From a virus (taxonomy: Duplodnaviria > Caudoviricetes), in IMG/VR virus record IMGVR_UViG_3300013426_000017, positions 32,001 to 96,000 of that record: DNA of 64,000 nucleotides; one strand, given 5' to 3'. The translations under genes and the position numbers were made by a program. The notes beneath the pieces were generated by a model, which worked only from the letters and a program-made list of their open reading frames with translations, was not told where the DNA came from and searched no databases. Positions 18,556 to 51,548 of the stretch are shown here, piece by piece (within the stretch, counting starts at the first letter, position 1; every line of letters begins with the position of its first letter).

Positions 18556-18911
18556 TTATTCAAGACACAGTAATGATTAAATCCCATTTGATAATTACTG
18601 ATATACATAGTGAGTATATTATCAAGTGGCAGGGTAGAATCATAGATACCAATCCAATACTCAAAAATGGTGCCCCTATATTCATTATTATAGGTAGCGA
18701 GAGTCGTATAGAATTGAACACTTGTGACATGAAGCAGATTGAGGAGACAGCCAAAAGAATTACTAGACCTAGAGGACGTGGCGCAGTCAGCACTGACACC
18801 GCACGAATCTATATTAAAGAGGTCGATGGCGCAGAAATCTACATAGGTAGTGTTATTCATAATAGTGTGAAAACATACGCGCCAATGTTCGATCCTGTTG
18901 GCTATAAATAA
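18552..18911 (+). CDS. Hypothetical protein
   Basis: ATGA-coupled ORF. Confidence 0.7.
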   Translation: MIIQDTVMIKSHLIITDIHSEYIIKWQGRIIDTNPILKNGAPIFIIIGSESRIELNTCDMKQIEETAKRITRPRGRGAVSTDTARIYIKEVDGAEIYIGSVIHNSVKTYAPMFDPVGYK

Positions 18912-19019
18912 AATTCTTAATTGACAAAATTAAAAATTTATAATATAATATATACATAAAGAAAAATGATTTTTTAATAATTATCCTCCTCTTGGGGCGC
19001 CAAGTAAAATACGCAATAT

Positions 19020-19104
19020 GCGCGAGTGATGGAATAGGTAGACAGCATTCTCTTAGAAAGAATGGCCAAAAGGCGTGTGGGTTCAAGTCCCACCTTGCGC
19101 ACCA
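19020..19104 (+). tRNA. trnL: tRNA-Leu(TAG)
   Basis: GCGCGAG/CTTGCGC acceptor, ATTCT-CTTAGAA-AGAAT anticodon arm, long V-arm, TTCAAGT T-loop, ACCA end. Confidence 0.92.
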
Positions 19105-19362
19105 ATATTTGGGCAACGGTAGTCCATAACTGTGCAGCGAGGTTCGAGTCCTCAAGTTAATCTGGTTCGACTCCAGTAGCGCAAGGTGCAAAACAGCGGG
19201 TTGGTAAACCTCCTTTCGAGGAAAGCTTTCACTTAATTGACAAAATTAAATTTTTATTATATAATATATATATAATAAAGATTTATTTCCCTAATATGTT
19301 CTGTGTTTTTATTCCTTTCTTACAAGGCGTTGAGGGTCCGCCTCATAGACCCTCATGAATAT

Positions 19363-19449
19363 GGAGATGTGTTGTAACCGGTAGCCAAGTTGGTCTCAAA
19401 AACCAATGCGTTAATTCGCGTGTGGGTTCGAATCCCACCATCTCTACCA
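19363..19449 (+). tRNA. trnL: tRNA-Leu(CAA)
   Basis: TTGGT-CTCAAAA-ACCAA anticodon arm, long V-arm, GTGGGTTCGAATCCCAC, ACCA. Confidence 0.92.
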
Positions 19450-19798
19450 CGGGTTCTCGGCCTTCTATCCACAAAGAGGGTTCCAAGAGGTCTAACGCGA
19501 GGGTATCTCTTGTAAATAATATATACTTCGCGAGGCTAGGAGTGGCGACCTACCTGCTATATAAATATCGCTTCGATCGAGCGCTTAGGCACGCGCTATA
19601 AAAGATATTGCTTTGACAACGGAGATGAGCGGTCTCACCTAGTGAATAGAACAAAAAGATGCCCGCCTAGAATGCATTCAGAGGTTAACCGATTTCCCTC
19701 AAGGAGTATGTCCTTAAAAAATCGGGCTAGCTTAAAAAACCATTTGACATTTTTAAAAAAATATTATATAATATTTATAGAAAGTGAGAAATGGAAAA

Positions 19799-19939
19799 AT
19801 GAACAAACGAATAAAGAAAAAGACTGGCGATGAGCTTCAAGACTTCTTGATGTGGCGCAATCGGGGATCGATAATCGCGCCAAAGAGAGGCAAAGGCTCA
19901 TTCAAAAGAAAAGCAAAACATAAAAATAAAGAATGTTAA
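19799..19939 (+). CDS. ArfA-like small basic protein (46 aa; below the ORF-track cutoff)
   Basis: MNKRIKKKTGDELQDFLMWRNRGSIIAPKRGKGSFKRKAKHKNKEC. KRGKGSFKRK.KH resembles the ArfA KKGKGSYxRKxKH motif. Own sigma-70-type promoter at 19744. Confidence 0.55.
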   Translation: MNKRIKKKTGDELQDFLMWRNRGSIIAPKRGKGSFKRKAKHKNKEC

Positions 19940-19943
19940 ATAT

Positions 19944-20023
19944 GGTGCCATCGACTAAAGGTTAGGTCCTCACCCTTTCAAGGTGAAAATGGTTTTTGGG
20001 TTCAAGTCCCCCTGGCATCACCA
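19944..20023 (+). tRNA. trnE: tRNA-Glu(TTC)
   Basis: TCACC-CTTTCAA-GGTGA anticodon arm; GGTGCCA/TGGCATC acceptor; enlarged V region and imperfect T stem. Confidence 0.8.
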
Positions 20024-20199
20024 TGCGTATAGCGCAACTGACATAGAGGATGGATTTCCTTGTGGGTTCCTTAAACTACCACCAATCATTATTGAGTATG
20101 TGGCTTAGTCATTTGCAGTCAGTATAATAAATAAAAACGAAAGTAAAGCGAATCCTCATTTGATAAAAATAAAAAATTTTGTTATAATAATTATAGAAA

Positions 20200-20827
20200 T
20201 TGAACCTTGAAAAATAAACACTTGATAACTCAGTGCAGAATGGATGCGATGTCCATGCTGAGAAACATCGAAAAGCGCTCGGAGGTGCCCGAACGAAACA
20301 AGGATACTTGTGGAAACCTGACCGCGGTATGCAAGGCGACTTGTATGCTGAACACCATTTGTGTGGAAAGTAAAGATGTTGTGCTGGCGTTGTCGCATGT
20401 AAAGGATGCCGTGGACAGGGGTGTGCAATAGAAAGCTATCTTGACAAAAGATGGCCTCTCCTAGTTAGGGTGAAACGAGTGGTGTCGTCATTAAACCTAG
20501 GAAATACCAACAAACACCTGTGCCGTGATGTATCAGAAATGATACTATAACTGTCTACAAGCGAACGAGTAGCGGAAGGCAAAAGAATAATGAAGAAAAA
20601 GTATGATATTCTACTTGCGAAGAATAACAAGTAAATTCTGAATATCCCGTGAAAGTTAGAGGTAATCAATCCTCTAGGGGCTTGGGCTCGAAAGAGTGAG
20701 GGCAAAAAGTTTAGTTAAGACGTTAGCTAAGCTCAGATTTGTTTTCTCCCGTGTCTGAATATGCGTGAAGATATACGTTGCAGTAAGGCGAAGGCCTATC
20801 AATGAGTGTTTATTTTTCAAGGCTCAA
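20200..20827 (+). ncRNA. Large structured ncRNA, ROOL/GOLLD class (size favours ROOL)
   Basis: 5' TTGAACCTTGAAAAATAAACACTTGATA pairs with 3' TATCAATGAGTGTTTATTTTTCAAGGCTCAA. Many internal hairpins, promoter directly upstream, embedded in a tRNA cluster, no credible ORF. Confidence 0.7.
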
Positions 20828-20974
20828 ACCTTGAGTAATTGGATGGAGGTATGATTATGAAAACTATGTTGAATAAATGTGCGTCCATGAGAAGTCCAGA
20901 TATTTCTGGCGATGAGACCTAACTCATCTAAATACAAGGCGTAATATGGCGTCGCGTAAGAACGCCATATATAT

Positions 20975-21048
20975 TGCTCGGTAGTGTAAAGGTAGCATAT
21001 CGGATTCATGCTCCGAAGATTTGGGTTCGATCCCCAACTGAGCAACCA
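20975..21048 (+). tRNA. tRNA with CAT anticodon (Met or Ile2; atypical body)
   Basis: TCGGA-TTCATGC-TCCGA anticodon arm; TGCTCGG/CTGAGCA acceptor; ACCA end. Confidence 0.8.
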
Positions 21049-21243
21049 GCGCTTTGGGCGCCCAAGACCGCCGTTCGGGGAACCTAAAATGTATTGTGAA
21101 ATGGATTTAGGCTGGCGTAATATCCTACCCTTTCTATATATTTAGTAAATATATGGAACAAAAACTATTAATTGTGAGGAGTTTTTACACCTGAGCCAAG
21201 TAATTGGTTTTGTTTTTTACCTCACAATTTTTTATTTAGATAT

Positions 21244-21334
21244 GCCCGATTACCCAAGTGGTTGAAGGGGTCCGCTTGCTAAGCGGATAGGGGTCGTAAG
21301 ACCCGCCGAGATTCGAATTCTCGATCGGGCGCCA
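21244..21334 (+). tRNA. trnS: tRNA-Ser(GCT)
   Basis: TCCGC-TTGCTAA-GCGGA arm, long V-arm, G73, GCCA end. Confidence 0.9.
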
Positions 21335-21355
21335 TAAATCCAAAAGGAGAACAAA

Positions 21356-22387
21356 ATGGAAAAGAATTTATCTATTATAATTCCCGTATATAATGGTGAG
21401 AAATATATTGGAACCGCATTGAGTTCCCTCGTAGATGCAAAGAATTTTCTCAAGGAGGTCATTATTGGTTGTGACCACTGCACCGATGGAACCAAGAGTG
21501 TAGCTGAGAAATTTGCTGAGACATTACCTATTAAGATTGTTGACGTGGCGCTGGACCTGCCTAATGGCCCCGGCAACGCTAGACAAGCGGGTCTTGATGT
21601 GGCGACTGGCGAATGGGTTGGTTTTCTTGATGTTGATGATGTTATTCCTACTGGCACTGTGCAGGCTGTAGCGCATACTATAGACGAGGTTGAGAAGAAG
21701 GTTGCTGAAGCTAAGATTGAAATTCCTATGATTATTGGTAATTTCACTGAGCGTAATGGGCTCACTGGTGAGACTGGTTTTGTCCATAAGAATGATAGCA
21801 CTTGGGTGCATGGCAAGTGGTATAATCGTAAGTTCCTCGTTGATAAAAATATACGATTTGACACTGAGTTGTATACTCATGAGGATGTATATTTTAATAA
21901 TCTTGTAGTTTCTCATATCATCGGTTGCGGCGGCTCCTATTGCACCATGGATCAGAATACTTACTTTTGGAATCAAAACATAGGTTCCATGACTAGCTCC
22001 CCTCGCTATACCGAGGAAAATTTTGCAGATTACGCATTTAGTGTCATGGAAGCGGGCTTGGCGATGCGTGAAAAATACCCCGCCAAGAAGAGTGAGTATC
22101 TCAAGATATTGTTGAATAACTATTGTCTGATGTATTTGTATTATATGAATTTCTTGTATTATCATCCTGAAGATATTAATCCTGAGATTAAAAATATCAT
22201 GAATGATTATTATCAGAGAATTTGCAATACATATAACGCGAAGACTGGGGACATTTGGGCATATTATAAAAATATGGTTGCTCAGTATCCCGCCTGGAAG
22301 GAAAATGTGGCACGTTCCTATCGTCCATTCTTTGAGAAGTGGACATTGGAAGATTTCTTATTCGATAAGGTTTGGGTTGGTGATTAA
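21356..22387 (+). CDS. Glycosyltransferase family 2
   Basis: LSIIIPVYN, DHCTDGT, GPGNARQAGLDVATGEWVGFLDVDD, HED. Confidence 0.92.
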   Translation: MEKNLSIIIPVYNGEKYIGTALSSLVDAKNFLKEVIIGCDHCTDGTKSVAEKFAETLPIKIVDVALDLPNGPGNARQAGLDVATGEWVGFLDVDDVIPTGTVQAVAHTIDEVEKKVAEAKIEIPMIIGNFTERNGLTGETGFVHKNDSTWVHGKWYNRKFLVDKNIRFDTELYTHEDVYFNNLVVSHIIGCGGSYCTMDQNTYFWNQNIGSMTSSPRYTEENFADYAFSVMEAGLAMREKYPAKKSEYLKILLNNYCLMYLYYMNFLYYHPEDINPEIKNIMNDYYQRICNTYNAKTGDIWAYYKNMVAQYPAWKENVARSYRPFFEKWTLEDFLFDKVWVGD

Positions 22388-22403
22388 TCATCAACCCTGA
22401 TAT

Positions 22404-22566
22404 CCGGGTGTAGCGCAGTTGGTAGCGCGCCTGATTTGGTAAAATGGCAGAATGGGATTGCTTGAGGGGTTCGCCTTGAGGTCAGTTGAATCTGTTGCAA
22501 GTTCGAATCTTGCTTTTACCACTAGGGTTCAGGAAGCCGGGGGTTCAAGTCCCTCCACTCGGACCA
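22404..22566 (+). tRNA. trnP: tRNA-Pro(TGG) interrupted in the anticodon by an 87-nt tRNA-like insert (exons 22404-22437 and 22525-22566)
   Basis: Removing 22438-22524 gives a canonical tRNA-Pro: CCGGGTG/CACTCGG acceptor, CCTGA-TTTGGGT-TCAGG arm, GGGGG-TTCAAGT-CCCTC, ACCA. Confidence 0.85.
22438..22524 (+). tRNA. Nested degenerate long-V-arm tRNA-like element (no canonical anticodon)
   Basis: Perfect GGTAAAA/TTTTACC acceptor, GCA/TGC D stem, GCAAG-TTCGAAT-CTTGC T arm, ends ACTA; anticodon loop is non-canonical. Confidence 0.75.
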
Positions 22567-22569
22567 TAT

Positions 22570-22644
22570 AGCCTCGTCGTATAAAAGTGAGTATGCTGGG
22601 CTTTGAACCCAGAGGAGGTGGAGCGTTACCACCCGAGGCTGCCA
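22570..22644 (+). tRNA. trnQ: tRNA-Gln(TTG)
   Basis: CTGGG-CTTTGAA-CCCAG arm; AGCCTCG/CGAGGCT acceptor; G73; atypical T-loop AGCGTTA. Confidence 0.8.
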
Positions 22645-22839
22645 CTATAGCCTATATAGGGCTGTATACATTCATTTTTGTTCTCCAATTTCAAGAAATA
22701 GTGTGGTTAATCGCCACACTATTTTTTTATGCCATGGCGCCGGCTCGCTTTGAGTTCTCATCACCTAGCCATGATGCGCATCAAGGCACGGTTCGCGCCA
22801 CGCCGTTTTCCCCTTGAATCGCGCTATAGGAATTTTTTT

Positions 22840-22886
22840 GGACAAAAGAGGCTCATAGAACATGATTTATTTTCAAAAATACTAGA
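22840..22886 (+). promoter_or_regulatory. Candidate second (late/phage-specific) promoter class GGNCAAAA-N24-TT(C/T)A
   Basis: Same motif and 31-32-nt offset at 22840, 28834, 47890, 52975, 58557 and on the minus strand at 2528. Confidence 0.55.
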
Positions 22887-22932
22887 AAGGGTTATTTCTA
22901 TAGCCCAAAAGATTAAAGGAGGTTAATACGTT

Positions 22933-23199
22933 ATGTATGGTATGACACGAGAACATAATGAGCGCGTTTATGGTTTAAAGCAATTCGTGGTAGATACTGA
23001 AAGCGAAATCGCCACATTGCCTACTGTTGATCCTACATTAGTGCCCGGCAGCACAGCGTTTGTTATAGCTACATCTAACACATATATGTTGAACAATCAA
23101 CGTTCTTGGGTTAAATTAGCTCGTAGCTCATCCGGTTCTGACACTCCTGATCCTAGCACCGATAATACCTACATTTGGGATGGCGGTAGTATTGGTTAA
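22933..23199 (+). CDS. Small virion/fibre-associated protein ending in a DGG motif
   Basis: PGSTAFVIATSNTYML...W pattern; C-terminus YIWDGGSIG. Confidence 0.65.
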   Translation: MYGMTREHNERVYGLKQFVVDTESEIATLPTVDPTLVPGSTAFVIATSNTYMLNNQRSWVKLARSSSGSDTPDPSTDNTYIWDGGSIG

Positions 23200-23216
23200 A
23201 GAAAGGAGTTGAGATA

Positions 23217-24467
23217 ATGGCTGATGTATATATGAAATCTAAATTCTATTTCAAACGTGGTGATTCCTCGGCTTGGACAGAACAAAATTTGGTTCTTGGC
23301 CCAGGTGAACCAGGATTTGAATTAGATACCGGAAAATTAAAAGTTGGTAATGGCACAACACCTTGGAATGAATTACCTTATATCACTGATAATATAACTC
23401 TTCCCGCTGACGTTGTTAAATATTTGGGTTCGGTAGGCGTATTGCCTGAAACCGCTATTGAAGGCGAGATATGCGAAGTAGATGATATGTTCTATATTTA
23501 TAGTGGTGGTCAGTGGAAACAAATAGGGGGCGGCGCCAAACCTGGCACTGTAGAAGTAATTAAAATTCGTGATGATGGCACCTCTAATCCAATTGTTGAA
23601 TCGAATGGTATTAAATATAATTCTATAGAAGATGCTCTTGCTAATATAAGCGACGGCGATTTAATTATTATTCCTGCTAATTTTAATTCTGTGATTAAAA
23701 TACCAACAAACACAAATGCAGGCATTGAATTAAAAAATATTAATATTAAGAATGATAAAGAAACGCCTTTAACTAATGGATATCAATCTACTCTTACTGT
23801 AAGCGGCACAGGCACTATGGAATGCCAAAAGCATGGTAATCCTACGGTTATGAATAGTGGAAATATGTATATTGCTGGAGGAAATTATATACGAACATTA
23901 GATTCTAAAGATAATGGTTATTATACAATCGTTAATCATGGCAATATGACATTTACTGGCGGGTTGGTGAGTTGTGATAAAGCATATTCTAGTCTAATTG
24001 AAAATGGTTATTGGGATTATTCCAATAGCGATCCTGCAAAAGGATTTGTGACTGGTCAAAATGAAGCGACTCCTAAACTAGTTATTAATGATGGAACATT
24101 TTTAGGTGGATTGTATGTTGTCAAAAATGATGATAATGGTTAGGTTGAAATTAATGGTGGTAATTTTTATGGAACAATCTATACTTGTGGTAAATTGCTA
24201 ACTATTAATGGAGGTAATTTTAATTGTGATAATTACTATAATTTACGAGCAAGAAAATTAAACGATAATATTAATATTGCTGATGTCGTAATTACCGGTG
24301 GCACCTTTTATTGTTCTACACCAAGATTTAATATTCTTGTGGAGCAAGAGGCCAATGTGATTATCAGAGGTGGCAAATTTAATTGCGAAGTACCTACTGC
24401 TTTATTAGCTGAAGGCTATCAATCTCAATTGGTAAATGATTATTATGAAGTAAGTGCAATCGGATAA
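23217..24467 (+). CDS. Fibre/adhesin protein, Mtd-N-like N-terminus plus beta-helix (416 aa, 1 TAG)
   Basis: Track ORFs 23217-24143 and 24195-24467 are in frame and joined across TAG 24141. RG..W...GE.G..DT.K.KVGNG..W..LPY N-terminus; INGG.F repeats. Confidence 0.8.
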
Positions 24468-24478
24468 GGAGGAGCGCA

Positions 24479-24817
24479 ATGGCTTTCAATGTAGTGTATA
24501 GCGACAAAGACCGTATCCAAGGCGCCATTGAAAGTGGCGTTATTCCTCGTGAGAGTCTAGTATTAACTAGTGATGACGCAAAACGGTCTGAAATGTATTA
24601 CTATGACGATAATGGTCAATTAAAGACTATTACCAAAAAAACCCAATTTAATTCTATGGTTGGAGCACGAACCTGGGCTAATAAATATGATTATATCGGG
24701 GAAGTGATTTCAATTAACATAGATGGTCAATGGGCCCCCTATTTAGTCGATGATAATAATGATTTTGTCTGTTTAAAAGACGAAGGATATGAAATCGTCG
24801 ATGGCGGCGACCCCTAA
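24479..24817 (+). CDS. Virion-associated protein ending in a DGG motif
   Basis: RBS AAGGAGG; C-terminus EIVDGGDP. Confidence 0.7.
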   Translation: MAFNVVYSDKDRIQGAIESGVIPRESLVLTSDDAKRSEMYYYDDNGQLKTITKKTQFNSMVGARTWANKYDYIGEVISINIDGQWAPYLVDDNNDFVCLKDEGYEIVDGGDP

Positions 24818-24842
24818 TATTTTTTAAGGAGGAAAAATATTT

Positions 24843-26087
24843 ATGGCTAACAAAACTTTAACCACCCAGATTATCTTGCGCAATGGCACGACCGCTGAAT
24901 GGGAAGCTAGCACCAAGATACTCAAGAAGGGTGAGGTTGGTATTGATACCACAAAAAATGAAATTCGCATTGGCGATGGCGAGCATACTTGGAAAGATTT
25001 AAAAATCGCCGGCGCCGATCAAGCTGCTATTCAGGCTTTGATTGATAAAGCAGAAGATAAAGTTTCCGTATTATTGGTTGAGGATAATGAAACTGATACT
25101 GAGATGCTCGCTACCGTTGCTAATCCTGCGCAAGGAGATATGGCTATAGTTGAGCGTGCAGTAGCTACAGGCTCAAAAGTCAACAGTCACACAGCTTATG
25201 CCTATGATGGTGAGAAATGGTGCGCGATGGATGGCAACTACAATGCTAAGAATGTTTATTTTGATGATGACTTTACCTATACTAATGCGATTGGCGCGAT
25301 TGGTGCCCCATCCGGCGGTTCTGGCACTCTCGCAGCATCGGGTAAGAGCGTTGAAGAGTTTATGGCTAGCATCTTGGCAAAGGAGGCTAACCCCGCCACA
25401 ACTCTGCCTGCCGCATCTGTGGAGATTACTAGCGGCAGCGGCACATTTGAAATCGGCACTCATAAGAATATTTCATATTCGGCATCTTTGTCTACTGGCT
25501 CCTACACTTATGGTCCTGCCACTGGTGTTGTTGCCGGCACTATAACCGCTAGTTTCGATGGTAAGACTAAAGATGGCGCTACTGGCACTTTTGAAAACGT
25601 TGTTGCTGATGGCACCAAGGAATTGAGTGTTTCTATCACTCACAATGAAGGTGCTGTTCCTAAGACCAATTTGGGTAATGCCTATGCAACTGGTAAGATT
25701 GCTGCTGGCACTAAGACTGCTACGGCATCTGCTAAGCTCGTTGGCGTTCGCCACATGTTCTATGGTCCTATGACCACTGACGCAGAACTCAATAGTGAAA
25801 ATATCCGTAAGCTCAGCCATGAGGAAGCAAGTAAGAAAACTATTACTACATTTGGCGCAGGCGCTGGCGCAGTGAAGGTTGTTGTTGCTGTTCCTACTAG
25901 CATGTCGGTTACTCAGGTGCTCATGCCTAGTGCAATGAACGCAGACGCAACGGCTAGCTTCGTCAAGCAGGCTGGTAGTATTCAGGTTGAGGGTGCTGAG
26001 AGCTTTACCGCTGCGGCCTACAATGTTTGGGTCTACAAGCCCGCATCTATTGATAGCACTGAAAAATATGCTGTCACAATTGGTTAA
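24843..26087 (+). CDS. Fibre protein with Mtd-N-like N-terminus
   Basis: IILRNGTTAEW...LKKGEVGIDT...IGDGEHTWKDL; Thr/Gly/Ala-rich beta-strand body. Confidence 0.8.
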   Translation: MANKTLTTQIILRNGTTAEWEASTKILKKGEVGIDTTKNEIRIGDGEHTWKDLKIAGADQAAIQALIDKAEDKVSVLLVEDNETDTEMLATVANPAQGDMAIVERAVATGSKVNSHTAYAYDGEKWCAMDGNYNAKNVYFDDDFTYTNAIGAIGAPSGGSGTLAASGKSVEEFMASILAKEANPATTLPAASVEITSGSGTFEIGTHKNISYSASLSTGSYTYGPATGVVAGTITASFDGKTKDGATGTFENVVADGTKELSVSITHNEGAVPKTNLGNAYATGKIAAGTKTATASAKLVGVRHMFYGPMTTDAELNSENIRKLSHEEASKKTITTFGAGAGAVKVVVAVPTSMSVTQVLMPSAMNADATASFVKQAGSIQVEGAESFTAAAYNVWVYKPASIDSTEKYAVTIG

Positions 26088-26108
26088 TAAAAGGGGAGGA
26101 TAAATAAT

Positions 26109-28781
26109 ATGGCTACTATTTTAAATAATGCTGCCTATATGGCACTTCCTATGAATATCAAACGCGGCAATCCTATTCCTCTCGATACGACTGCTGTATG
26201 GTATAATAAAACAGAATTAGAAACTTATGCCGCATCTGGCGCTACTGCTTATGTTGGTCAAGTTCTGACATTAGTTGCTGATGGCAAGTGCGAAGCTTAC
26301 ATGATTAGCAATGAGAATGGCGATCTTGTTAAATTGGCACAAACCACCGCATCTGGCGACCTTGCATCTGATGTAGCAAATTTACAAACTCAAGTAGGTA
26401 ATCTCACAAAAGCTGTTGGCGCGGCCGCTGAAGGCGAGAATGAGGCTACCGGTCTATATAAGTTAATTGCTGATGTTGAGGCAGTGGCGAAGGCCCGCCT
26501 CGAGAGCATTGAAGCTGGCGATGCAAGCGTCACTATAGCTGGCAGCGCCACCAAGCCTAGCGTAGCAGTTAAGATTTCTGAAGCAGAAGGCAATGCGCTG
26601 TCCCTTGCAACTGATGGTCTCAAGGTTGAAATTCCCGATGTCAAGGTTCCTGTTTATAGCTTGGTTAAAGATGGCGAAGCTGCTGAAGGCGACGTCGCCA
26701 CATACCATTTAACCAAGGATGGCGTAAATGAAGGCGTAGCAATCAATATTCCCAAAGACTTGGTTGTTGCATCTGGTTCGGTTGTTGAACTCGCTGATGG
26801 CAATCTCCCTGAAGGCGTTGAAACTGCTGGCACCTACATTCAGTTGAATCTCGCCAATAGCACCAAGCCCATTTATGTCAACGTTGGCTCCCTAATTGAG
26901 TATGTCACTGGCGGTTCGGGCGCAGATGACGCCATCCAAGTCAACGTCTCTAGTGATACTCACAAGGTAACCGCTAGTGTCAAGGATGGTTCTCTCACTA
27001 AAGAAATGCTTACTGAGGGTATTGTTGTATCTCTTGATAAGGCCGATAGTGCAGTTCAGAAGGTTGTTTCTGGCTCCAATAATGGCACCATTAGTGTTGA
27101 TGGCGCAGAAGTTGTAGTTGCTGGTCTCAAGAATGCGGCATTCGCCACTGTTGAGTCTATAAATGAAACTGCTCAGGGTTATGTTGATACCGCTAAGGCA
27201 GCATTGGAAGGCAAGGTGGGCGACGAGGCTAGTGCGGCAACAATCGCCGGTGCCAAGAAGTATGCTGATGATGCGGTCGCCACAGTTAAGACCAATCTCG
27301 AGGGGCAGCTCTCCAATAAGGTTGCAGACCTCAAGAATGACGATGTGGCAGTTGATAACCAATTTGTTACCGCAGTCAAGGAAGCAAATGGTATTGTAAC
27401 TGTTGAGCGCAAGGCCCTCGGTGCGGATGACATTCCTGAGCTTGGCGTAAGTAAGATTACTGGCCTGCAGGGTTTGCTCGATGGTAAGCAAGATAACTTA
27501 ACATTTGATGGCTCCTATAAAGCAGGTGTTAATAATGCTGCTACTGTATCCACTGTTAATGCAGCTAAGACCGCATTGATTGGCGACGCAGATGCTGAAA
27601 CCACTGATGGCAATACTATTGCTGATGTTCGTCGTTATGTCGATGCCAAGACTAAGGGTATTGCATCTGATGTAAAGCTTTCTGAGCTAAGCGATAAGGT
27701 CACCGCTAACTCCACTAGTATTAAAGACATTCAGGATTCTTTGGCGGATGGCGGTTCTGTTTCTAACAAGATTGCTGACGCTAAAAAGGCGGGCACTGAT
27801 GCCGCAGCCGCTGTAACCACTCTTGAAAATGGCAAAGTTAAGGATAATGCTGATGCGATTGATGCTATCAACAATGCCGAAACTGGTATTTTAAAGCAGG
27901 CTAAGGATTATGCTGATGGTAAGGATGCCGCAATCTCCAATGCTAAGAAAGCTGGCGATGATGCCGCCGCTGCAGTCAAGGCACTTGAGGATGGTCAAGT
28001 AAAGACTAATACCGATGCAATTAGCGCTATCAATACCAAGCTTGGCGCAATCCCTGCTGATAAGACGGTGGCAGAAGCGATTGAGGACGCTAAGACTGCA
28101 GCTACCTATGATGATACAGCGTTGTCTAATCGCGTAAAGGCTGTTGAAGATGATTATCTCAAGGGTGCTGATAAGACCGAGCTCGAAGGCAAAATTACCA
28201 CTGAGAAAGAGCGTTTGGACGCATTCTTGAACGCTGCTGAAGTTGGCGATGCCGCAGTAGATACCTTGAAAGAAATTCAGGACTATATTACTACTCATGG
28301 CGAAGCCGCCGATGAAATGGTCAAGAATATTGCTGCCAATAAGACTGCGATTGAGACCGAAGCATCGACCGCACGCGCCAATGAGCAGACATTAACCAAC
28401 GCTATTACCAAGTTGAATGGCGCGGCTAACATCGAAGGTTCTGTTTCTAATAAGATTGAGGCTAGAATTACTGACCTCCAGCTTAATGATACCTACGTCA
28501 AGAAGGAATTGGATAAACGCTTAATGTCCAACAGTGAGGGTAGTAAGCTCGCCGATATTGCTAAAGGCGCACAAGTCAACGTTATTGAGACTGTTAAAGT
28601 CAATGGCGCGGCACTTGATGTTGCAGATAAGGCTGTTGATATTGCGGTTCCTGTAGCAGACGATACTAGTATTGCAATTACTGAGAATAAGATTGGCGTT
28701 AAAGCTGTCGATGTTCAAAAGTTATTCATTGCTGAGGGCGATGTATTGATAATTGATGGCGGTAATGCTAATAGTTTCTAA
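26109..28781 (+). CDS. Long fibre protein (coiled-coil and beta repeats)
   Basis: 890 aa; AK.YAD repeats, DTLKEI motif, C-terminus LIIDGGNANSF. Confidence 0.85.
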   Translation: MATILNNAAYMALPMNIKRGNPIPLDTTAVWYNKTELETYAASGATAYVGQVLTLVADGKCEAYMISNENGDLVKLAQTTASGDLASDVANLQTQVGNLTKAVGAAAEGENEATGLYKLIADVEAVAKARLESIEAGDASVTIAGSATKPSVAVKISEAEGNALSLATDGLKVEIPDVKVPVYSLVKDGEAAEGDVATYHLTKDGVNEGVAINIPKDLVVASGSVVELADGNLPEGVETAGTYIQLNLANSTKPIYVNVGSLIEYVTGGSGADDAIQVNVSSDTHKVTASVKDGSLTKEMLTEGIVVSLDKADSAVQKVVSGSNNGTISVDGAEVVVAGLKNAAFATVESINETAQGYVDTAKAALEGKVGDEASAATIAGAKKYADDAVATVKTNLEGQLSNKVADLKNDDVAVDNQFVTAVKEANGIVTVERKALGADDIPELGVSKITGLQGLLDGKQDNLTFDGSYKAGVNNAATVSTVNAAKTALIGDADAETTDGNTIADVRRYVDAKTKGIASDVKLSELSDKVTANSTSIKDIQDSLADGGSVSNKIADAKKAGTDAAAAVTTLENGKVKDNADAIDAINNAETGILKQAKDYADGKDAAISNAKKAGDDAAAAVKALEDGQVKTNTDAISAINTKLGAIPADKTVAEAIEDAKTAATYDDTALSNRVKAVEDDYLKGADKTELEGKITTEKERLDAFLNAAEVGDAAVDTLKEIQDYITTHGEAADEMVKNIAANKTAIETEASTARANEQTLTNAITKLNGAANIEGSVSNKIEARITDLQLNDTYVKKELDKRLMSNSEGSKLADIAKGAQVNVIETVKVNGAALDVADKAVDIAVPVADDTSIAITENKIGVKAVDVQKLFIAEGDVLIIDGGNANSF

Positions 28782-28793
28782 TAGATAATTAAT

Positions 28794-28833
28794 AAGGGTT
28801 AGGCTCGTGGAGTCTAACCCTATTTTTTATTTT
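28794..28833 (+). terminator. Intrinsic terminator
   Basis: AGGGTTAGGCTC-gtg-GAGTCTAACCCT followed by a T run. Confidence 0.8.
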
Positions 28834-28948
28834 GGGCAAAAATAGTTAGTCCCACAATTTAATTTTTCATAATTAGATGAAATAAAAATTTAAATAATTG
28901 AGTATCGAATCATGTGTTCGGTATTTGATTAAAGAAAGGGAGTTAATT

Positions 28949-29998
28949 ATGGCAAATAAAACATTATTAGCGCAAATTAAATAGCGTAGCGATACCGCCA
29001 CTAACTGGACGACCGCAGATCCGGTAATTGGCGATGGTGAAATTATTATTGTAGAAACAAGTGCTGGCGAGAAACGATTCAAAGTCGGCGATGGGGAGAA
29101 GACATTTACACAACTCCCTTATGCGGATGAGAACATACTTAGTAAAATAAAGAATTATACTGCTGGCGATGGAATTAGTATCAGCAATGAGGGCGTTATT
29201 AGTTCTACTGGTGGTAGTGGTAGTAGTGATGTGTTTGTTATTGAAATAGATGATGACAGTGAAAATATTACTACTTCATTCGATGATATAAAAAATGCTA
29301 TACAAAATCATCTTGGCTTAATATCAAATTTTGGTAGTGGCACAGCATTATTGGTTGGAAGCTATATTAGTGATGCTACTACCGATCATGATGAATATAT
29401 TGAATTGATTTGTCCATTAGGAATTGGATATATAGTATATGTGTTACTTCGAGCCCCAGGATCAACTACCGTTAATCAATCGCATGAACGATTTAGTACG
29501 CCTTATGCAAGCTGGTACAATCCACCTGCATCTGGCGCTGCTTATTGGAATGCTACCAATAAAAAATGGGAAATAAAAGATATTGTATCTGGTAGTGATA
29601 CGTTTTATTTGGAGATGGAAATAGATGGCAATGGTAATATCACTAGTTTATCAAAGACATTTGCAGAAATTCAATCGGCGGTTGAATCTAATAAAATTAT
29701 GATGGTTATTGTCGCTGGTGAAGGAAGATTTTCTACATCAGCATGTGCAAGTAATTCAAGTGTGATTTTAATTTATACAACATGGATTGACGACGGAAAA
29801 AGGTTGTTATTTAATATTAATAATGACAATACCGGTAATTATCAATGGGTATCTATTTACACAGCAGGCAACGGTATCTCAATATCTAACAATGGCACTA
29901 TCTCAGTAACCGCATCTAAAATATATTCTGGAACAAGCAATGCGCCGAGCGCCGACTTAGGCGAGAATGGCGATATCTATATACAAACGGAGGGTTGA
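28949..29998 (+). CDS. Fibre protein with Mtd-N-like N-terminus (349 aa, TAG at codon 12)
   Basis: MANKTLLAQIK(Q)RSDTATNW...GE...FKVGDG..TFTQLPY is in frame with track ORF 29231; RBS AAAGGGAG. Confidence 0.85.
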
Positions 29999-45114: not shown

Positions 45115-45855
45115 ATGAAATATTTTGTTGTATCAGATATACATAGTTTTTTTGGTGAATTTAAAAAGGCAATAGACGAAGCGGGATTTGATCCTACTGA
45201 CGAAAACCATAGGCTAATTATTTGTGGCGACTTGTTCGATCGAGGATCTCAGCCCCTAGAGCTCATGCAGCATCTTAATGAGGAGGTTCCCAATGCTATA
45301 CTCATTCGCGGCAACCACGAGGATTTGTTTGTTAAAATGTGCGAACGCGGCGAACCTTGGATGCATGATTATAGCAATGGAACTGCACAGACTATATTTG
45401 ATTTCACTGGCGTGGATAAGCCTTGGCCATTTGAATACCGGGCTGAAGTAGCGCTTGGAATGGTGCGGCCAATGCTCAATCGCATGGTAGACTATTACGA
45501 GACTGATCATTATGTATTCGTGCATGGTTGGATTCCTTGTGTTAAGGAACATCATAGGCTTGCAAAATATCGCCCATTAGAAGAAGATTGGCGCGATGCC
45601 CCCAAAAACAAATGGGAAGACGCCAGATGGTATAATGGCATGGATTGTGCCGCCCAAGGTGTAGTGGTCCCCGGCAAGACAGTAGTGTGTGGCCATTGGC
45701 ATTGTAGCTATGGGCATTGGTTTTATGAGAATGATGGTAAGCCTGAGTTTGGCGAAGGAGCTGATTTCTCACCTTATTATGCCAATGGAATTATAGCAAT
45801 AGATGCTTGCACTGCATACTCGGGCAAGGTAAATTGTATCGTGCTTGATGATTAA
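45115..45855 (+). CDS. Calcineurin-like metallophosphoesterase
   Basis: SDIHS, GDLFDRG, RGNHE, FVHG, GHWH. Confidence 0.92.
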   Translation: MKYFVVSDIHSFFGEFKKAIDEAGFDPTDENHRLIICGDLFDRGSQPLELMQHLNEEVPNAILIRGNHEDLFVKMCERGEPWMHDYSNGTAQTIFDFTGVDKPWPFEYRAEVALGMVRPMLNRMVDYYETDHYVFVHGWIPCVKEHHRLAKYRPLEEDWRDAPKNKWEDARWYNGMDCAAQGVVVPGKTVVCGHWHCSYGHWFYENDGKPEFGEGADFSPYYANGIIAIDACTAYSGKVNCIVLDD

Positions 45856-46551: not shown

Positions 46552-47889
46552 ATGAGTATGCATTGCGGATATTGCGTAAAAGTTACTAATTTACGCCCGC
46601 ACACTAATGCAGATAGATTGCAGATTGCCACTTTCTTTGGCAATGATACTTGTGTGGGGCTGGATGTGGTCAAGGGTGAGATTGGTATTTATTTTCCCTC
46701 AGACTTGCAGCTAAGTGAAGAATTTTGTGTGGCGAACCACCTTTGCCGCAAGAAGCCTGATGGCACGCCTGATACTGGCTATCTTGATCCTGAGAAGCGC
46801 AATATCAAGCCTATTAAGTTGCGAAGCGAGAAGTCAGATGGAATTTTCTTGCCTATTAGTTGTCTTGAGTATACTGGTATAAATCTTGATGATATTAATA
46901 TTGGTGATACTGTTACTGTAGTTAATGGACATGAGATTTGCAAGAAATATATTCCTCGTGGCCGCGCCAAAAGCAACGCCGCCAAGGGTAAGGGTAATAG
47001 GACTCGTAAGAAGCATGCACCCGTGGCACCGCTATTTACTGAGCATGCTGATACTGAGCAACTTGCCTACAATCTTGGCGCATTTAAGCCGGGTGATGAA
47101 ATTGAGATCACTCTGAAGATGCATGGCACTAGCCAAAGGACCGCATACCTACCGGTTCTCAAGGGATATAGGCGGACTATTTGGGATAAGTTGCTTGGCC
47201 GCGAAGGTATTCCTATCTATGATTGGGATTATGTGTCTGGTACTCGTAGAACTGTCCTTGATGATTGGGATGGTGGTTTTTATGGTAGTAACGCGTTCCG
47301 TAAGCAGCACCATGATAAGTTCGTTGGTAAGTTGCGCAAGGGCGAGGAAGTGTATTATGAAATTACATCATACACTGATAATGGAACGCCTATTATGTCA
47401 AGTTGCTCAGTTCCAAAAGAATATCAGAATATTTATGGTGATACTATGGAATTTAGTTATGGTTGTTCACCTGATGGCGGTGACGTGCCTCAGTCCGACT
47501 TGTATGTGTATCGCATGACTATGACTAATGAAGATGGTGATGTTGTAGAATATTCACCCGATTTTATGCGTTATCGTTGTGAGCAGATGGGAGTTAAGTG
47601 CGTTCCTGAGTTTGTTCATGAGTTTATCCCCGACCAAGAGTGGCTAGATTCAATGGCGCTAACTGCCGGCGAATATGTCATGGGAGTGGCTGAGCAATAT
47701 TACGATGGTCCTGACCCAATTGGCAAGACTCATGTGCGCGAAGGTGTGGTAGTTCGTATCATTAATCGGCCCAAGTTCTGCGCCTATAAGCACAAAAATT
47801 TTTTATTTAAACTAATTACTGGTATTATTGTGGATAAAATTGCTGATTCTCGTGACGAGATTGGTGAAGACGTTTTAGAAGAATTATAA
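46552..47889 (+). CDS. ATP-dependent RNA ligase (DRB0094/Rnl5-like, N-terminal OB-like domain)
   Basis: N-terminal RPHTNADRL; motif I TLKMHGTS; YYEI; YVYR; REGVV; motif V YKHK. Confidence 0.8.
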   Translation: MSMHCGYCVKVTNLRPHTNADRLQIATFFGNDTCVGLDVVKGEIGIYFPSDLQLSEEFCVANHLCRKKPDGTPDTGYLDPEKRNIKPIKLRSEKSDGIFLPISCLEYTGINLDDINIGDTVTVVNGHEICKKYIPRGRAKSNAAKGKGNRTRKKHAPVAPLFTEHADTEQLAYNLGAFKPGDEIEITLKMHGTSQRTAYLPVLKGYRRTIWDKLLGREGIPIYDWDYVSGTRRTVLDDWDGGFYGSNAFRKQHHDKFVGKLRKGEEVYYEITSYTDNGTPIMSSCSVPKEYQNIYGDTMEFSYGCSPDGGDVPQSDLYVYRMTMTNEDGDVVEYSPDFMRYRCEQMGVKCVPEFVHEFIPDQEWLDSMALTAGEYVMGVAEQYYDGPDPIGKTHVREGVVVRIINRPKFCAYKHKNFLFKLITGIIVDKIADSRDEIGEDVLEEL

Positions 47890-50806: not shown

Positions 50807-51088
50807 ATGCCAAAGGGTAATCGATTTGAAATGCATAGTTTTTATTGTTTGACTTGTGGCAATAAGACATTTGATTTGCCGCGTCAATATAGCCACATGT
50901 ATGGCAAGGGACATATTAAAGACCTATATTGTCCTACTTGTCGCGCCACGAGAAAGACATTAGAGTGTAGAAATGAAACTGAGGTATTTGAGTTTAAGGA
51001 AGATTTTTTAAATGGAACCTATGAAGACGGTATGGATACTTGCGGGGCCGCCGGGCTCGGGAAAATCGACCTGGCTCGAGCAGAATAG
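50807..51088 (+). CDS. Zn-ribbon protein
   Basis: CLTCG...GHIKDLYCPTC; RBS GGAGG. Confidence 0.7.
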   Translation: MPKGNRFEMHSFYCLTCGNKTFDLPRQYSHMYGKGHIKDLYCPTCRATRKTLECRNETEVFEFKEDFLNGTYEDGMDTCGAAGLGKIDLARAE

Positions 51089-51548
51089 ATTACCCCAGAG
51101 CAGAGTAATTTCAAGGGATGAAATTCGTTTCTCGCTTGTAACTGATAAAGATGATTATTTTGGCCAAGAGGATGAAGTATGGCGCCAGTATGTAAAAGCG
51201 GCTCAGATAGCGATTTTGGACAAAGAAATTAAAAATATTTACCTTGACGCCACACATCTCAACGAAGCATCAAGAAATAAAATCTTGAATCTACTGGCGA
51301 AGCCGACCTTGCCCTATTTTGAAATTAAGGTTGTTTATTTTGATGTGTGTTTTGCAGTATGCTGCGAACGCAATGCAAAAAGAACGGGTTTGGCTAATGT
51401 TCCTATTAAAACAATTCGCAGGATGATGAATGCATTTCAAATTCCGACATTTAATGAAAAACATCTGTATACTGAAATTTGGCGTGTAGATGCCCAAGGA
51501 AATATTGAAAAGGAGATAAATTATAATGTATGTTGCTGTCCCGTATGA
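51012..51548 (+). CDS. P-loop kinase, polynucleotide-kinase-like (AAA_33)
   Basis: GPPGSGKSTW, ISRDEIR, DATHL...R, RNAKR. Confidence 0.88.
   Translation: MEPMKTVWILAGPPGSGKSTWLEQNRLPQSRVISRDEIRFSLVTDKDDYFGQEDEVWRQYVKAAQIAILDKEIKNIYLDATHLNEASRNKILNLLAKPTLPYFEIKVVYFDVCFAVCCERNAKRTGLANVPIKTIRRMMNAFQIPTFNEKHLYTEIWRVDAQGNIEKEINYNVCCCPV

What the first reader, a model, noticed from the sequence alone, without database searches (positions are those of the whole stretch)
22404..22566. Second nested tRNA: tRNA-Pro(UGG) split by an anticodon-less tRNA mimic
Seen: the 87-nt insert (22438-22524) keeps a perfect acceptor stem, a D stem and a perfect T arm, but has a non-canonical anticodon loop and ends ACTA instead of ACCA. 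Removing it restores TTT|GGGT; the junction is ambiguous by 2 nt because of a repeated GG. Inference: the insert kept the acceptor/T-arm features that processing nucleases recognise and lost its decoding function. That is expected if it is selected as an excision signal rather than as a tRNA. Two independent cases with different isotypes and insertion positions (34/35 and 36/37) argue for a system rather than an accident.
Basis: partly seen in the sequence, partly recalled or inferred. Interest (0 to 1): 0.9.

Follow-up and report, generated by a model that had tools for sequence, protein, structure and literature searches.

The report
tRNA-shaped intron in phage tRNA-Pro
A proline tRNA gene of a 175-kb uncultured phage is split in its anticodon by an 87-base insert that is shaped like a tRNA but has no anticodon. 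The same layout is conserved, co-varies and moves between tRNA genes in related phages, which suggests an undemonstrated way of splicing tRNAs with ordinary tRNA-trimming enzymes plus an RNA ligase.

Summary
Window 22404-22566 is a tRNA-Pro(UGG) gene interrupted after U34 by an 87-nt tRNA-shaped insert (22438-22524). The insert has a 7-bp acceptor stem, a D arm and a canonical T arm. It has a short hairpin in place of an anticodon arm, then A73 and a CUA tail.

I found five further sequence versions of this nested gene in independent assemblies.
- Insert stems are 97% paired, and 8 of 18 pairs show compensatory changes.
- Exon stems are 100% paired, and 8 of 21 pairs show compensatory changes.
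- An uninterrupted allele in five related phages is 75/76 identical to one spliced version.
- A homologous insert sits at the same loop position in a tRNA-Thr, so the insert is mobile.

All 13 nested tRNA genes examined obey one rule. The insert runs from the first base of the inner acceptor stem to exactly 4 nt past that stem. Removing it leaves a 7-nt loop with U33 and R37.

The phage encodes an Rnl5-like RNA ligase and a PNK-like kinase. It has no splicing endonuclease, RtcB or RNase Z.

RNA-level splicing is not shown, because the public RNA runs were uninformative. The 3' cut has no known enzyme.

This scan found the same kind before on other DNA. The only literature precedent I found is a remark on 'enigmatic' introns in Lak megaphages (PMC6784885).

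The parts
22404..22437 (+). 5' exon of tRNA-Pro(UGG): acceptor 5' strand, D arm, anticodon-stem 5' strand and loop nucleotides U32-U34
   Evidence: ARAGORN intron mode and the spliced fold. The D-stem and acceptor pairs co-vary with the 3' exon across homologues.
22438..22524 (+). 87-nt tRNA-shaped insert (intron). Acceptor stem 22438-22444 with 22514-22520. D stem 22447-22449 with 22459-22461. Short hairpin 22466-22476 with a 5-nt loop and no anticodon. Variable-arm hairpin 22483-22494. T stem 22497-22501 with 22509-22513, and T loop TTCGAAT 22502-22508. A73 at 22521. CUA tail 22522-22524.
   Evidence: Rfam tRNA 40.6 bits, with the anticodon arm skipped. Covariation: 8 of 18 pairs compensatory. 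The covariance model R1 finds one copy per related genome at 97-106 bits, while real class II tRNAs score at most 47 bits.
22525..22566 (+). 3' exon of tRNA-Pro(UGG): G35 G36 G37 U38, anticodon-stem 3' strand, T arm, acceptor 3' strand, A73 and an encoded CCA
   Evidence: Exons of the L026 version are 75/76 identical to an uninterrupted tRNA-Pro in five related phage contigs.
41484..41633 (+). Second nested gene of the same genome: tRNA-Lys(UUU) split after U36 by a complete tRNA-Asn(GUU) with CCA (41521-41595)
   Evidence: Sequence. Boundary rule 7/7, overhang GCCA, spliced loop CTTTT|AA. The spliced form is called tRNA-Lys(ttt) and the insert tRNA-Asn(gtt).
46552..47889 (+). ATP-dependent RNA ligase (Rnl5/DraRnl-like, PF09414 + PF21189). 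Candidate enzyme for sealing the exons; this role is inferred.
   Evidence: phrog_968 'RNA ligase' E 2e-61. TIGR02306 36.9 bits, below its cutoff. Atlas clusters carry RNA_ligase/PHA02142. Homologues are present in all 8 related genomes searched.
51012..51548 (+). Polynucleotide-kinase-like P-loop kinase. Candidate 5'-end healing enzyme; this role is inferred.
   Evidence: phrog_505 'polynucleotide kinase' E 6e-22. Weak match to the kinase part of bacterial Pnkp.
45115..45855 (+). Calcineurin-type metallophosphoesterase. Possible 3'-end healing enzyme; this is a weak inference.
   Evidence: phrog_246 / phrog_20114 phosphoesterase. Weak match to the phosphoesterase part of Pnkp.

Best explanation
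The 87-nt insert is a mobile, tRNA-shaped intron in a working phage tRNA-Pro(UGG) gene.

Proposed pathway:
- The gene is transcribed as one 163-nt precursor.
- The insert folds into an L-shaped tRNA mimic, using its acceptor stem, D arm, T arm and the D/T-loop contacts.
- The host's tRNA end-processing machinery therefore recognises it. RNase P cuts at its 5' end, between U34 of the outer tRNA and G1 of the mimic.
- A second endonucleolytic cut falls exactly 4 nt past the mimic's acceptor stem, after A73 plus a 3-nt tail.
- The two exons stay held together by the outer acceptor, D and T stems. This leaves a nick between U34 and G35 of the anticodon loop.
- The phage's own RNA ligase seals the nick, with the kinase and phosphoesterase healing the ends if required.
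- The product is a normal tRNA-Pro(UGG).

What is shown: the anatomy, the boundary rule, selection on both structures, the presence/absence polymorphism and mobility of the insert, and the presence of the ligase and kinase genes.

What is inferred: excision at the RNA level, the identity of both nucleases, and the role of the ligase.
For: 1. Removing 22438-22524 gives a canonical tRNA-Pro.
2. Six diverged versions keep the layout. Insert stems are 97% paired, with 8/18 pairs compensatory. Exon stems are 100% paired, with 8/21 pairs compensatory, including acceptor pairs that span the insert. Both give 0/500 shuffles, and slid controls are only 33-53% paired.
3. An uninterrupted allele in five related phage contigs, at the same Cys-Pro-Val locus, is 75/76 identical to the spliced L026 version. 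The exons have therefore not decayed, and the boundaries are exact.
4. A homologue of the insert (84-86% identical to the L023/L025 versions, closer than the window's own) sits at the same 34/35 site of a tRNA-Thr(UGU). The shared target is TGATTT|G.
5. All 13 nested genes (Pro, Lys, Gln, Leu, Thr, Ile, amber suppressor) obey one rule. A 7-bp inner acceptor stem starts right after the outer 5' loop part, and the 3' overhang is exactly 4 nt. The spliced loop is 7 nt with U33 and R37. N-1 is U in 11 of 13, which from general knowledge is the base RNase P prefers.
6. The rule gives anticodons that fit the tRNA body (Gln, Leu), where ARAGORN's own junctions gave Glu and Arg.
7. The insertion position in the outer loop varies (32/33 to 36/37) but is fixed relative to the inner structure. 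The inner structure therefore defines both cuts.
8. This is the only tRNA-Pro gene in the genome.
9. The phage encodes an RNA ligase, a PNK-like kinase and a phosphoesterase.
10. No known ribozyme or group I core is present in the insert.
Against: There is no RNA evidence. In the RNA runs laid, the matches to the 5' exon continue into bacterial tRNA-Pro sequences, not into the phage 3' exon.

I know of no bacterial endonuclease that cuts 3 nt past the discriminator regardless of sequence. On a non-CCA tail, RNase Z is expected to cut after N73, which would leave 3 extra nucleotides in the loop. CCA tails, as in the Lys/Asn nest, normally block RNase Z (general knowledge).

U(-1) can pair with A73 in all Pro versions. 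This could shift the RNase P cut.

The ligase is present in every related phage searched, whether or not its tRNA-Pro allele carries the insert. Its presence therefore does not discriminate.

The fold energy of the 163-nt precursor is not unusual (z = -1.1).

The closest relative has lost the Lys/Asn nest, so individual nests are dispensable.
Confidence: 0.55

Rival explanations
1. The intron is spliced, but by a different chemistry. [quoted passage not shown] The phage kinase and phosphoesterase then heal these ends, and the phage ligase or a host RtcB seals them. The tRNA shape serves as the recognition handle for that enzyme.
For: The phage carries a complete heal-and-seal set: a PNK-like kinase, a metallophosphoesterase and a ligase. 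The healing enzymes would be unnecessary for RNase P/Z-type ends. The 3' cut, 4 nt past the acceptor stem regardless of tail sequence (CUA, CUG, AUA, CAA, CCA, CCU), fits no known RNase Z behaviour.
Against: No homologue of the archaeal/eukaryal splicing endonuclease, RtcB or an MBL nuclease was found in the phage. N-1 = U in 11 of 13 nests, and the exact start at inner position +1, are what RNase P would give. Heal-and-seal sets are common in phages as a counter to anticodon nucleases (general knowledge).
Confidence: 0.2
2. The functional product is the tRNA mimic itself, or the unspliced double-tRNA. It could be a decoy or sponge for a tRNA-targeting host defence nuclease or a tRNA-binding protein. 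The outer tRNA would be mainly a carrier that supplies transcription, folding and 5'-end processing.
For: The mimic keeps the elements of the tRNA L-shape (G18-G19, the TTCGA(A/G)T T loop, compensated stems). It also keeps a conserved GGG-N5-CCC hairpin with purine-rich flanks in place of the anticodon arm. The same mimic family is carried by two different tRNAs. Phage tRNA arrays are thought to counter tRNA-cleaving defences (general knowledge).
Against: Other nests in the same phage group carry unrelated inserts, 58 to 123 nt long. These include a real tRNA-Asn and minimal acceptor/T-arm forms. They share only the tRNA shape and the exact boundaries. That points to shape and ends mattering, not a specific RNA. 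The exons are under strong structural selection and match an uninterrupted allele 75/76. This reading is not exclusive of splicing.
Confidence: 0.15
3. Dead gene. A tRNA-like fragment was inserted into the tRNA-Pro gene and inactivated it, and nothing is spliced.
For: There is no RNA evidence of a joined product. The closest relative lost the other nest (Lys/Asn) to a homing-endonuclease gene without obvious replacement.
Against: Exon stems are 100% paired across six diverged versions, with 8 compensatory pairs, some spanning the insert. The exons are 75/76 identical to an intact allele. It is the only tRNA-Pro gene of the phage. The precise 1-to-76 boundaries recur in 13 of 13 nests.
Confidence: 0.07

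Closest known systems
'Enigmatic' introns in tRNAs of Lak megaphages (Devoto et al. [quoted passage not shown] 4)
   Same: These are short introns in the anticodon loop of phage tRNA genes. One, in tRNA-Thr(TGT), 'itself may encode a tRNA'. Alleles with and without the intron exist.
   Different: That paper only remarks on them; it gives no structure analysis, boundary rule or mechanism. The present case is in a different, 175-kb phage group. The insert is an anticodon-less mimic with a non-CCA tail, with covariation evidence and evidence that it moved between tRNA-Pro and tRNA-Thr.
Group I self-splicing introns in bacterial and phage tRNA anticodon loops (for example cyanobacterial tRNA-Leu(UAA))
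   Same: They interrupt the anticodon loop, are removed at the RNA level, are mobile, and show presence/absence polymorphism. A 342-nt intron at the classical U34/A35 site of tRNA-Leu(UAA) lies in this same window (37750-38179).
   Different: The insert is 87 nt with a tRNA cloverleaf. It has no P1-P9 core, no Rfam group I match and no terminal G. It cannot plausibly self-splice, so it needs proteins or RNase P.
Archaeal/eukaryal tRNA introns cut by the splicing endonuclease at a bulge-helix-bulge motif and joined by RtcB or Trl1
   Same: A protein-dependent cut-and-ligate logic in which the exons are held together by the tRNA body.
   Different: There is no BHB geometry: the loop strands between the outer anticodon stem and the inner acceptor stem vary (3-5 nt by 6-8 nt). 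The position is not fixed at 37/38. The phage has no splicing endonuclease and no RtcB. The host is bacterial, judged from the TTGACA/TATAAT promoters read.
Phage T4 Pnkp/Rnl1 repair of tRNA-Lys nicked in the anticodon loop by the PrrC anticodon nuclease
   Same: A phage-encoded kinase and ligase seal a break in a tRNA anticodon loop. The proposed last step here is the same reaction.
   Different: In T4 the break is host-inflicted damage, not a programmed step of maturation. The ligase here is Rnl5/DraRnl-like, not Rnl1. PF09511 gave no match, but its control was silent, so that result is uninformative.
tRNA-like structures used as RNase P/RNase Z processing signals (mitochondrial tRNA punctuation; MALAT1 mascRNA)
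   Same: A tRNA-shaped element without a decoding role directs precise endonucleolytic cuts at its own ends.
   Different: In those systems the flanks are simply released. Here the flanks would have to be re-joined into a functional tRNA, and the 3' cut lies 3 nt beyond the usual RNase Z site.

Membership tests
tRNA (Rfam RF00005), applied to the insert | Score above the family's gathering threshold | tested here: met
   40.6 bits against a threshold of 29.
tRNA (Rfam RF00005), applied to the insert | 7-bp acceptor stem, D arm with G18-G19, and T arm with a TTCRA loop | tested here: met
   Sequence and ARAGORN drawing. The stems are kept by compensatory changes.
tRNA (Rfam RF00005), applied to the insert | Anticodon arm with a 7-nt loop, U33 and purine 37 | tested here: not met
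   Infernal skips the arm entirely. The best hairpin has a 5-nt loop (GGG-N5-CCC in the homologues). ARAGORN does not call the L023, L025, L026 or L034 versions as tRNAs.
tRNA (Rfam RF00005), applied to the insert | 3' CCA end, either encoded or addable after N73 | tested here: not met
   The tail is CUA here, and CUA, CUG, AUA or CAA in the other Pro-hosted versions. It is CCA only in the Thr-hosted homologue.
tRNA-shaped introns of phage tRNAs (the Lak-phage 'enigmatic' introns, PMC6784885) | The insert lies in the anticodon loop of a phage tRNA gene, and its removal restores a canonical tRNA | tested here: met
tRNA-shaped introns of phage tRNAs (the Lak-phage 'enigmatic' introns, PMC6784885) | The insert itself is tRNA-like | tested here: met
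tRNA-shaped introns of phage tRNAs (the Lak-phage 'enigmatic' introns, PMC6784885) | Alleles with and without the insert exist | tested here: met
   An uninterrupted tRNA-Pro in L044-L048 is 75/76 identical to the spliced L026 version.
tRNA-shaped introns of phage tRNAs (the Lak-phage 'enigmatic' introns, PMC6784885) | Removal at the RNA level (a true intron) | tested here: inconclusive
   The RNA-run contigs that match the 5' exon belong to bacterial tRNA-Pro. One joint that skips exactly tRNA-Asn (41520 to 41596) was seen at 90% likeness and may be a bacterial or intron-less tRNA-Lys.
Group I intron | Conserved P1-P9 core, length of about 200 nt or more, and a match to the Rfam group I model | tested here: not met
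   The insert is 87 nt, and Rfam matches only tRNA at E <= 1.
BHB-type tRNA intron (archaea/eukaryotes) | Bulge-helix-bulge motif at the exon-intron junctions, and a splicing endonuclease available | tested here: not met
   The junction geometry varies relative to the outer stem. PF01974 is absent from the phage, while the archaeal controls matched it.
Phage tRNA heal-and-seal repair set (Pnkp + RNA ligase) | ATP-dependent RNA ligase, polynucleotide 5'-kinase and a 2',3'-phosphoesterase are encoded | tested here: inconclusive
   The ligase is clear (phrog_968 E 2e-61; atlas PF09414/PF21189). The kinase is likely (phrog_505 E 6e-22). The phosphoesterase is generic. No enzymatic activity was tested.

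The most novel reading that the evidence does not exclude
Bacteria and their phages may have a third, undescribed way of splicing tRNAs. In it the intron is a tRNA mimic whose own ends are cut by the tRNA end-maturation machinery: RNase P at +1, and an endonuclease that measures to position 76. The nicked anticodon loop is then sealed by a phage Rnl5-type ligase.

Because the sealing enzyme is phage-encoded, maturation of phage tRNAs would be gated by phage gene expression. In relatives this includes the amber suppressor that reads the recoded TAG.

The intron would spread between tRNA genes by the reverse reaction, that is, ligation of the excised mimic into a cleaved anticodon loop.
Probability: 0.3. 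Interest if true: 0.92.

Novelty: new variant of a known kind. Interest (0 to 1): 0.8.

Why it matters
Bacterial tRNA introns are thought to be self-splicing group I introns. Protein-dependent tRNA splicing is considered an archaeal and eukaryal trait.

A family of short, mobile, tRNA-shaped introns that rely on RNase P-type recognition and an RNA ligase would be a new splicing route. It would also give the widespread phage RNA ligases a role beyond damage repair. In addition, it could be a way for stop-codon-recoding phages to control when their own tRNAs become active.

In practice, such genes are missed or mis-typed by tRNA finders. ARAGORN called Gln as Glu and Leu as Arg here, so phage tRNA inventories and inferences about genetic code are affected.

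The element is small and testable with one transcript and three enzymes.

Tried and rejected
**RNA evidence.** The four runs laid were Logan contigs, not raw reads. Matches at 22404-22439 in RNA runs X15, X18 and X19 run on into bacterial tRNA-Pro sequences. They say nothing about the phage transcript. A joint from 41520 to 41596 in X15 skips exactly tRNA-Asn, but it was seen at 90% likeness and cannot be told from an ordinary tRNA-Lys. The DNA-like run X1 carries the insert and shows no joined form.

**Host identification.**
- The nested pattern and a 40-nt exact phage word found nothing in genome contigs.
- The INPHARED phage collection gave only a 40-nt tRNA match.

**ROOL-anchored search.** This returned three phage tRNA arrays without clear nests of this kind.

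**PF09511 (Rnl1) search.** It found nothing, but its control was silent, so it is uninformative.

**PDB sequence search with the ligase.** No meaningful hit.

**Fold energy of the precursor.** Not significant (z = -1.1). The evidence for structure rests on covariation, not on energy.

**Why Pro-hosted tails avoid CCA.** My idea was that CCA followed by GG would mimic the UCAGG strand of the outer anticodon stem. In-silico folding gave only weak support: the correct stem had probability 0.47 with CUA and 0.15 with CCA. Other natural tails tested in the window context were also low (AUA 0.20). I keep this as speculation only.

**Alternative register.** I considered RNase Z cutting after A73, with the tail CUA supplying positions 32-34. 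I rejected it because the CAA tail of L027 would lack U33, and because RNase P would have to cut 3 nt upstream of +1.

**Retro-insertion route through a phage reverse transcriptase.** There is no RVT_1 match in the genome, although two Mtd_N (DGR-type) proteins are present.

**Literature.** Searches for a described mechanism found none.

Full report
**1. What is there**

The window is part of a 175,406-bp IMG/VR virus record. It is 96% complete with 37% G+C. All of the record's tRNA genes lie in this window.

- At 22404-22566 (+ strand), ARAGORN in intron mode calls tRNA-Pro(UGG) with an 87-nt intron.
- Without intron mode it calls only the insert, as a weak 'tRNA-Glu(ttc)'.
- Deleting 22438-22524 gives a canonical 76-nt tRNA-Pro with an encoded CCA.
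- The insert scores 40.6 bits on Rfam's tRNA model, against a gathering score of 29. The alignment covers the acceptor stem, D arm and T arm and skips the whole anticodon arm.
- The insert has a perfect 7-bp acceptor stem and a 3-bp D stem with G18-G19 in the loop. It has a short hairpin with a 5-nt loop where the anticodon arm should be.
- It also has a variable-arm hairpin and a perfect T arm with loop TTCGAAT. It ends with A73 followed by CUA, not CCA.

**2. The second case and the genomic setting**

At 41484-41633, a tRNA-Lys(UUU) is split after U36 by a complete tRNA-Asn(GUU). The insert runs from G1 to CCA at 41521-41595.

The same window also holds:
- a ROOL RNA, at 302 bits;
- a tRNA-Leu(UAA) with a 342-nt intron at U34/A35;
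- an amber-suppressor tRNA(CUA), plus several non-canonical tRNAs.

The genome appears to read TAG as sense in many genes: ORF coverage rises from 0.78 to 0.905 when TAG is read through.

**3. Relatives**

One close relative, a 174-kb genome (locus L013, handle G001), has the same nested Pro gene. It carries two compensatory pair changes in the insert, and its other changes fall in the insert's loops.

I then searched with a degenerate pattern. It required the outer anticodon stem-loop halves, separated by an insert that contains a T loop. This found further diverged versions:
- L023 and L024 in IMG/VR;
- L025 (identical to L029), L026 and L027 in metagenome assemblies.

A pattern taken from the insert alone found L034. 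There, a homologue of the insert sits in a different gene, tRNA-Thr(UGU), again between positions 34 and 35.

Insert identities range from 72% to 95%. The Thr-hosted copy is 84-86% identical to the L023/L025 copies. That is closer than the window's own copy is to them, at 72-76%. The insert family has therefore moved between tRNA genes. The two target sites share TGATTT|G.

**4. Selection on both structures**

| Alignment | Cells paired | Pairs with changes on both sides | Shuffles reaching this | Slid controls (paired) |
|---|---|---|---|---|
| Six insert versions | 97.2% | 8 of 18 (acceptor 3, D 1, T 4) | 0 of 500 | 35-53%, with 0-1 such pairs |
| Six nested Pro genes, outer stems | 100% | 8 of 21 | 0 of 500 | 33-53% |

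The outer compensatory pairs include acceptor pairs whose two strands lie on opposite sides of the insert.

One caveat applies. The outer anticodon stem-loop was fixed by my search pattern, so its invariance is not evidence. The Thr case was found through the insert only, and it still gives a canonical loop.

With six sequences the shuffle control is only indicative. The explicit compensatory pairs are the real evidence.

The 'anticodon' region differs between lineages. It is GGGG-UUCG-CCUU-like in the window and GGG-N5-CCC in the others, and it never forms a 7-nt loop.

**5. Intron-less allele**

A search for the joined exon sequence found five phage contigs, L044-L048, with an uninterrupted tRNA-Pro(UGG). 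It lies at the same Cys-Pro-Val position of the tRNA array. It is 75/76 identical to the L026 gene once its 88-nt insert is removed by the rule in section 6.

This fixes the boundaries at the DNA level and shows a presence/absence polymorphism. It also shows that the exons of the interrupted allele have not decayed.

The nested gene is the only tRNA-Pro gene of the window's genome.

**6. A general boundary rule**

ARAGORN's intron mode showed further interrupted tRNAs in the related loci. A script tested every possible junction in 13 nested genes. In every case:
- a 7-bp inner acceptor helix (6 of 7 pairs in two cases) begins immediately after the outer 5' loop nucleotides;
- that helix is followed by exactly 4 unpaired nucleotides (N73 plus 3) before the outer 3' loop nucleotides;
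- the spliced loop is 7 nt long, with U33 and a purine at position 37.

The insertion point in the outer loop ranges from 32/33 to 36/37. The cuts are therefore defined by the inner structure and not by the outer one.

The tails are CCA (6 nests), CUA (3) and CUG, AUA, CAA and CCU (one each). The length is constant but the sequence is not. N-1 is U in 11 of 13.

Splicing by the rule gives Gln(UUG) and Leu(CAA), where ARAGORN's own junctions gave 'Glu' and 'Arg'. The rule's anticodons fit the tRNA bodies: a Gln-type D arm, and a class II body with A73.

Apart from tRNA-Asn, none of the inserts correctly tested is called a tRNA by ARAGORN. The window's own insert draws only the weak 'Glu(ttc)' call.

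**7. Machinery**

The phage encodes:
- an ATP-dependent RNA ligase, at 46552-47889. Evidence: phrog_968 at E 2e-61, and atlas clusters carrying PF09414 plus the PHA02142 OB domain, which is the Rnl5/DraRnl type;
- a PNK-like kinase, at 51012-51548;
- a metallophosphoesterase, at 45115-45855.

Six-frame searches found no tRNA-splicing endonuclease, RtcB, CCA-adding enzyme, MBL-type RNase Z or reverse transcriptase.

Ligase homologues occur in all eight related genomes searched, including the five whose tRNA-Pro is uninterrupted. The ligase is therefore compatible with the model but is not correlated evidence for it.

**8. Most likely mechanism**

The insert is a mobile tRNA-shaped intron.

- *5' cut.* It falls at position +1 of a tRNA-like fold with U at -1. 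That is what RNase P does, from established knowledge of RNase P substrate rules. This step is inferred.
- *3' cut.* The sequence rule requires a cut after position 76, and the enzyme is unknown. Canonical RNase Z cuts after N73 on non-CCA tails and is blocked by CCA. This step is the weakest part of the model.
- *Sealing.* After both cuts the exons remain paired through the outer acceptor, D and T stems. This presents a nick in the anticodon loop, which is the kind of substrate that phage RNA ligases seal. This step is also inferred.

I put 0.55 on this package. I put 0.2 on splicing by a different nuclease chemistry followed by heal-and-seal. I put 0.15 on the mimic or the composite RNA being the real product, and 0.07 on a dead gene.

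**9. What is not shown**

No RNA-level evidence could be obtained. The runs available were assembled contigs, and the RNA contigs that match the 5' exon continue into bacterial tRNA-Pro sequences.

One RNA-run joint skips exactly tRNA-Asn in the Lys nest. It cannot be told from an ordinary tRNA-Lys at 90% likeness.

The DNA-like run X1 carries the insert and shows no joined DNA form.

**10. Comparison with what is known**

The only precedent I found is Devoto et al. 2019 (PMC6784885). That paper reports 'enigmatic' introns in Lak megaphage tRNAs, one of which 'itself may encode a tRNA'. It also reports alleles with and without the intron. It proposes no mechanism, and my other literature searches found none.

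- The element is not a group I intron: it has no core and is only 87 nt long.
- It is not a BHB intron: the geometry varies and there is no endonuclease gene.
- It works like the RNase P/Z-directed release of tRNA-like structures, combined with a T4-style sealing of the anticodon loop.

Earlier follow-ups in this scan reached the same reading on other phage genomes (e1-3416708, e1-1968979, e1-5481721, e1-5647142, e1-5369829). I used them as the lead to the 2019 paper and re-derived the rest here.

What this locus adds:
- an anticodon-less mimic whose tail is non-CCA in all five Pro-hosted lineages while keeping 3 nt;
- explicit covariation in both the intron and the exons;
- a near-identical empty-site allele;
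- a homologous intron in a second tRNA isotype.

Noticed in passing
window 20205-20817 (+): A full-length ROOL RNA (Rfam RF03087, 301.9 bits) lies inside the first tRNA cluster, between tRNA-Glu and tRNA-Met. Other ROOL-carrying phage contigs (L015-L017) also place it within large tRNA arrays.
   Followed up: partly
window 37750-38179 (+): tRNA-Leu(UAA) has a 342-nt intron between U34 and A35, the classical cyanobacterial group I site. Rfam gave no group I match at E <= 1. RNA-run contigs cover 37830-37914 and 38015-38140 at high depth, with variable middles, which suggests abundant related RNAs in gut metatranscriptomes.
   Followed up: partly
whole genome G000; suppressor tRNA at window 37573-37643: TAG is probably read as sense. 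ORF coverage rises from 0.78 to 0.905 when TAG is read through, with many in-frame TAGs in the minus-strand block at genome 130-175 kb. The phage carries a tRNA(CUA). In relative L026 the suppressor tRNA itself carries a 72-nt tRNA-shaped insert.
   Followed up: partly
window 22570-22644 (+): A non-canonical tRNA-Gln(UUG) with T loop AGCGTTA starts 3 nt after the CCA of the nested tRNA-Pro. It scores 46 bits on Rfam, and ARAGORN misses it at default settings. In G001 a 55-nt stretch separates the two genes.
   Followed up: no
window 41373-41459 (+): An odd tRNA-Ser(UGA)-like gene with a long variable arm and a non-TTC T loop. It matches only the tRNA-Sec model, at 42 bits and below threshold.
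   Followed up: no
window 19105-19200 (+) and 41253-41290 (+): T-arm-like hairpins (GAGG-TTCGAGT-CCTC, CTGG-TTCGACT-CCAG, GATGG-TTCGAGT-CCATC) sit directly after tRNA-Leu(UAG) and tRNA-Thr, without a full tRNA around them.
   Followed up: no
L021:1735-2490 (G001, closest relative): Where the window has tRNA-Ser-like plus the Lys/Asn nest, G001 has a GIY-YIG homing-endonuclease-like ORF with in-frame TAG codons. Only a decayed 3' remnant of tRNA-Lys remains.
   Followed up: partly
L044:1254-1377, L046:6665-6789 (-), L047:1575-1697 (-): A tRNA with an insert of about 50 nt in its anticodon loop. The insert is not tRNA-shaped; it has a GGTCTAG...CTAGACC-type hairpin. It is conserved in three related phage contigs and is a different kind of interruption.
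   Followed up: no
L023:7503-7701, L027:769-923: ARAGORN's intron mode mis-types nested tRNAs because it places the junction 1-2 nt off. It calls a tRNA-Gln(UUG) 'Glu(ttc)' and a class II tRNA-Leu(CAA) 'Arg(ccg)'.
   Followed up: yes
window 23217-24143 and 24843-26087 (+): Two proteins with the Mtd_N (major tropism determinant) domain typical of diversity-generating retroelements lie just downstream of the nested tRNA. No reverse transcriptase was found in the genome.
   Followed up: partly
window 22300-41700 in run X1: Four runs of one named organism (coded 'organism A', 2016) hold 83-87% of the sampled words of the 4-kb stretch window 18900-22900. The one run laid, X1, covers 22300-41700 at about 28x, similar to a non-phage contig. 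The phage may be a prophage or carrier-state phage of a cultured isolate, which would make experiments feasible. The contigs break at 22404-22433, as if the host's own tRNA-Pro shares the 5' half.
   Followed up: partly
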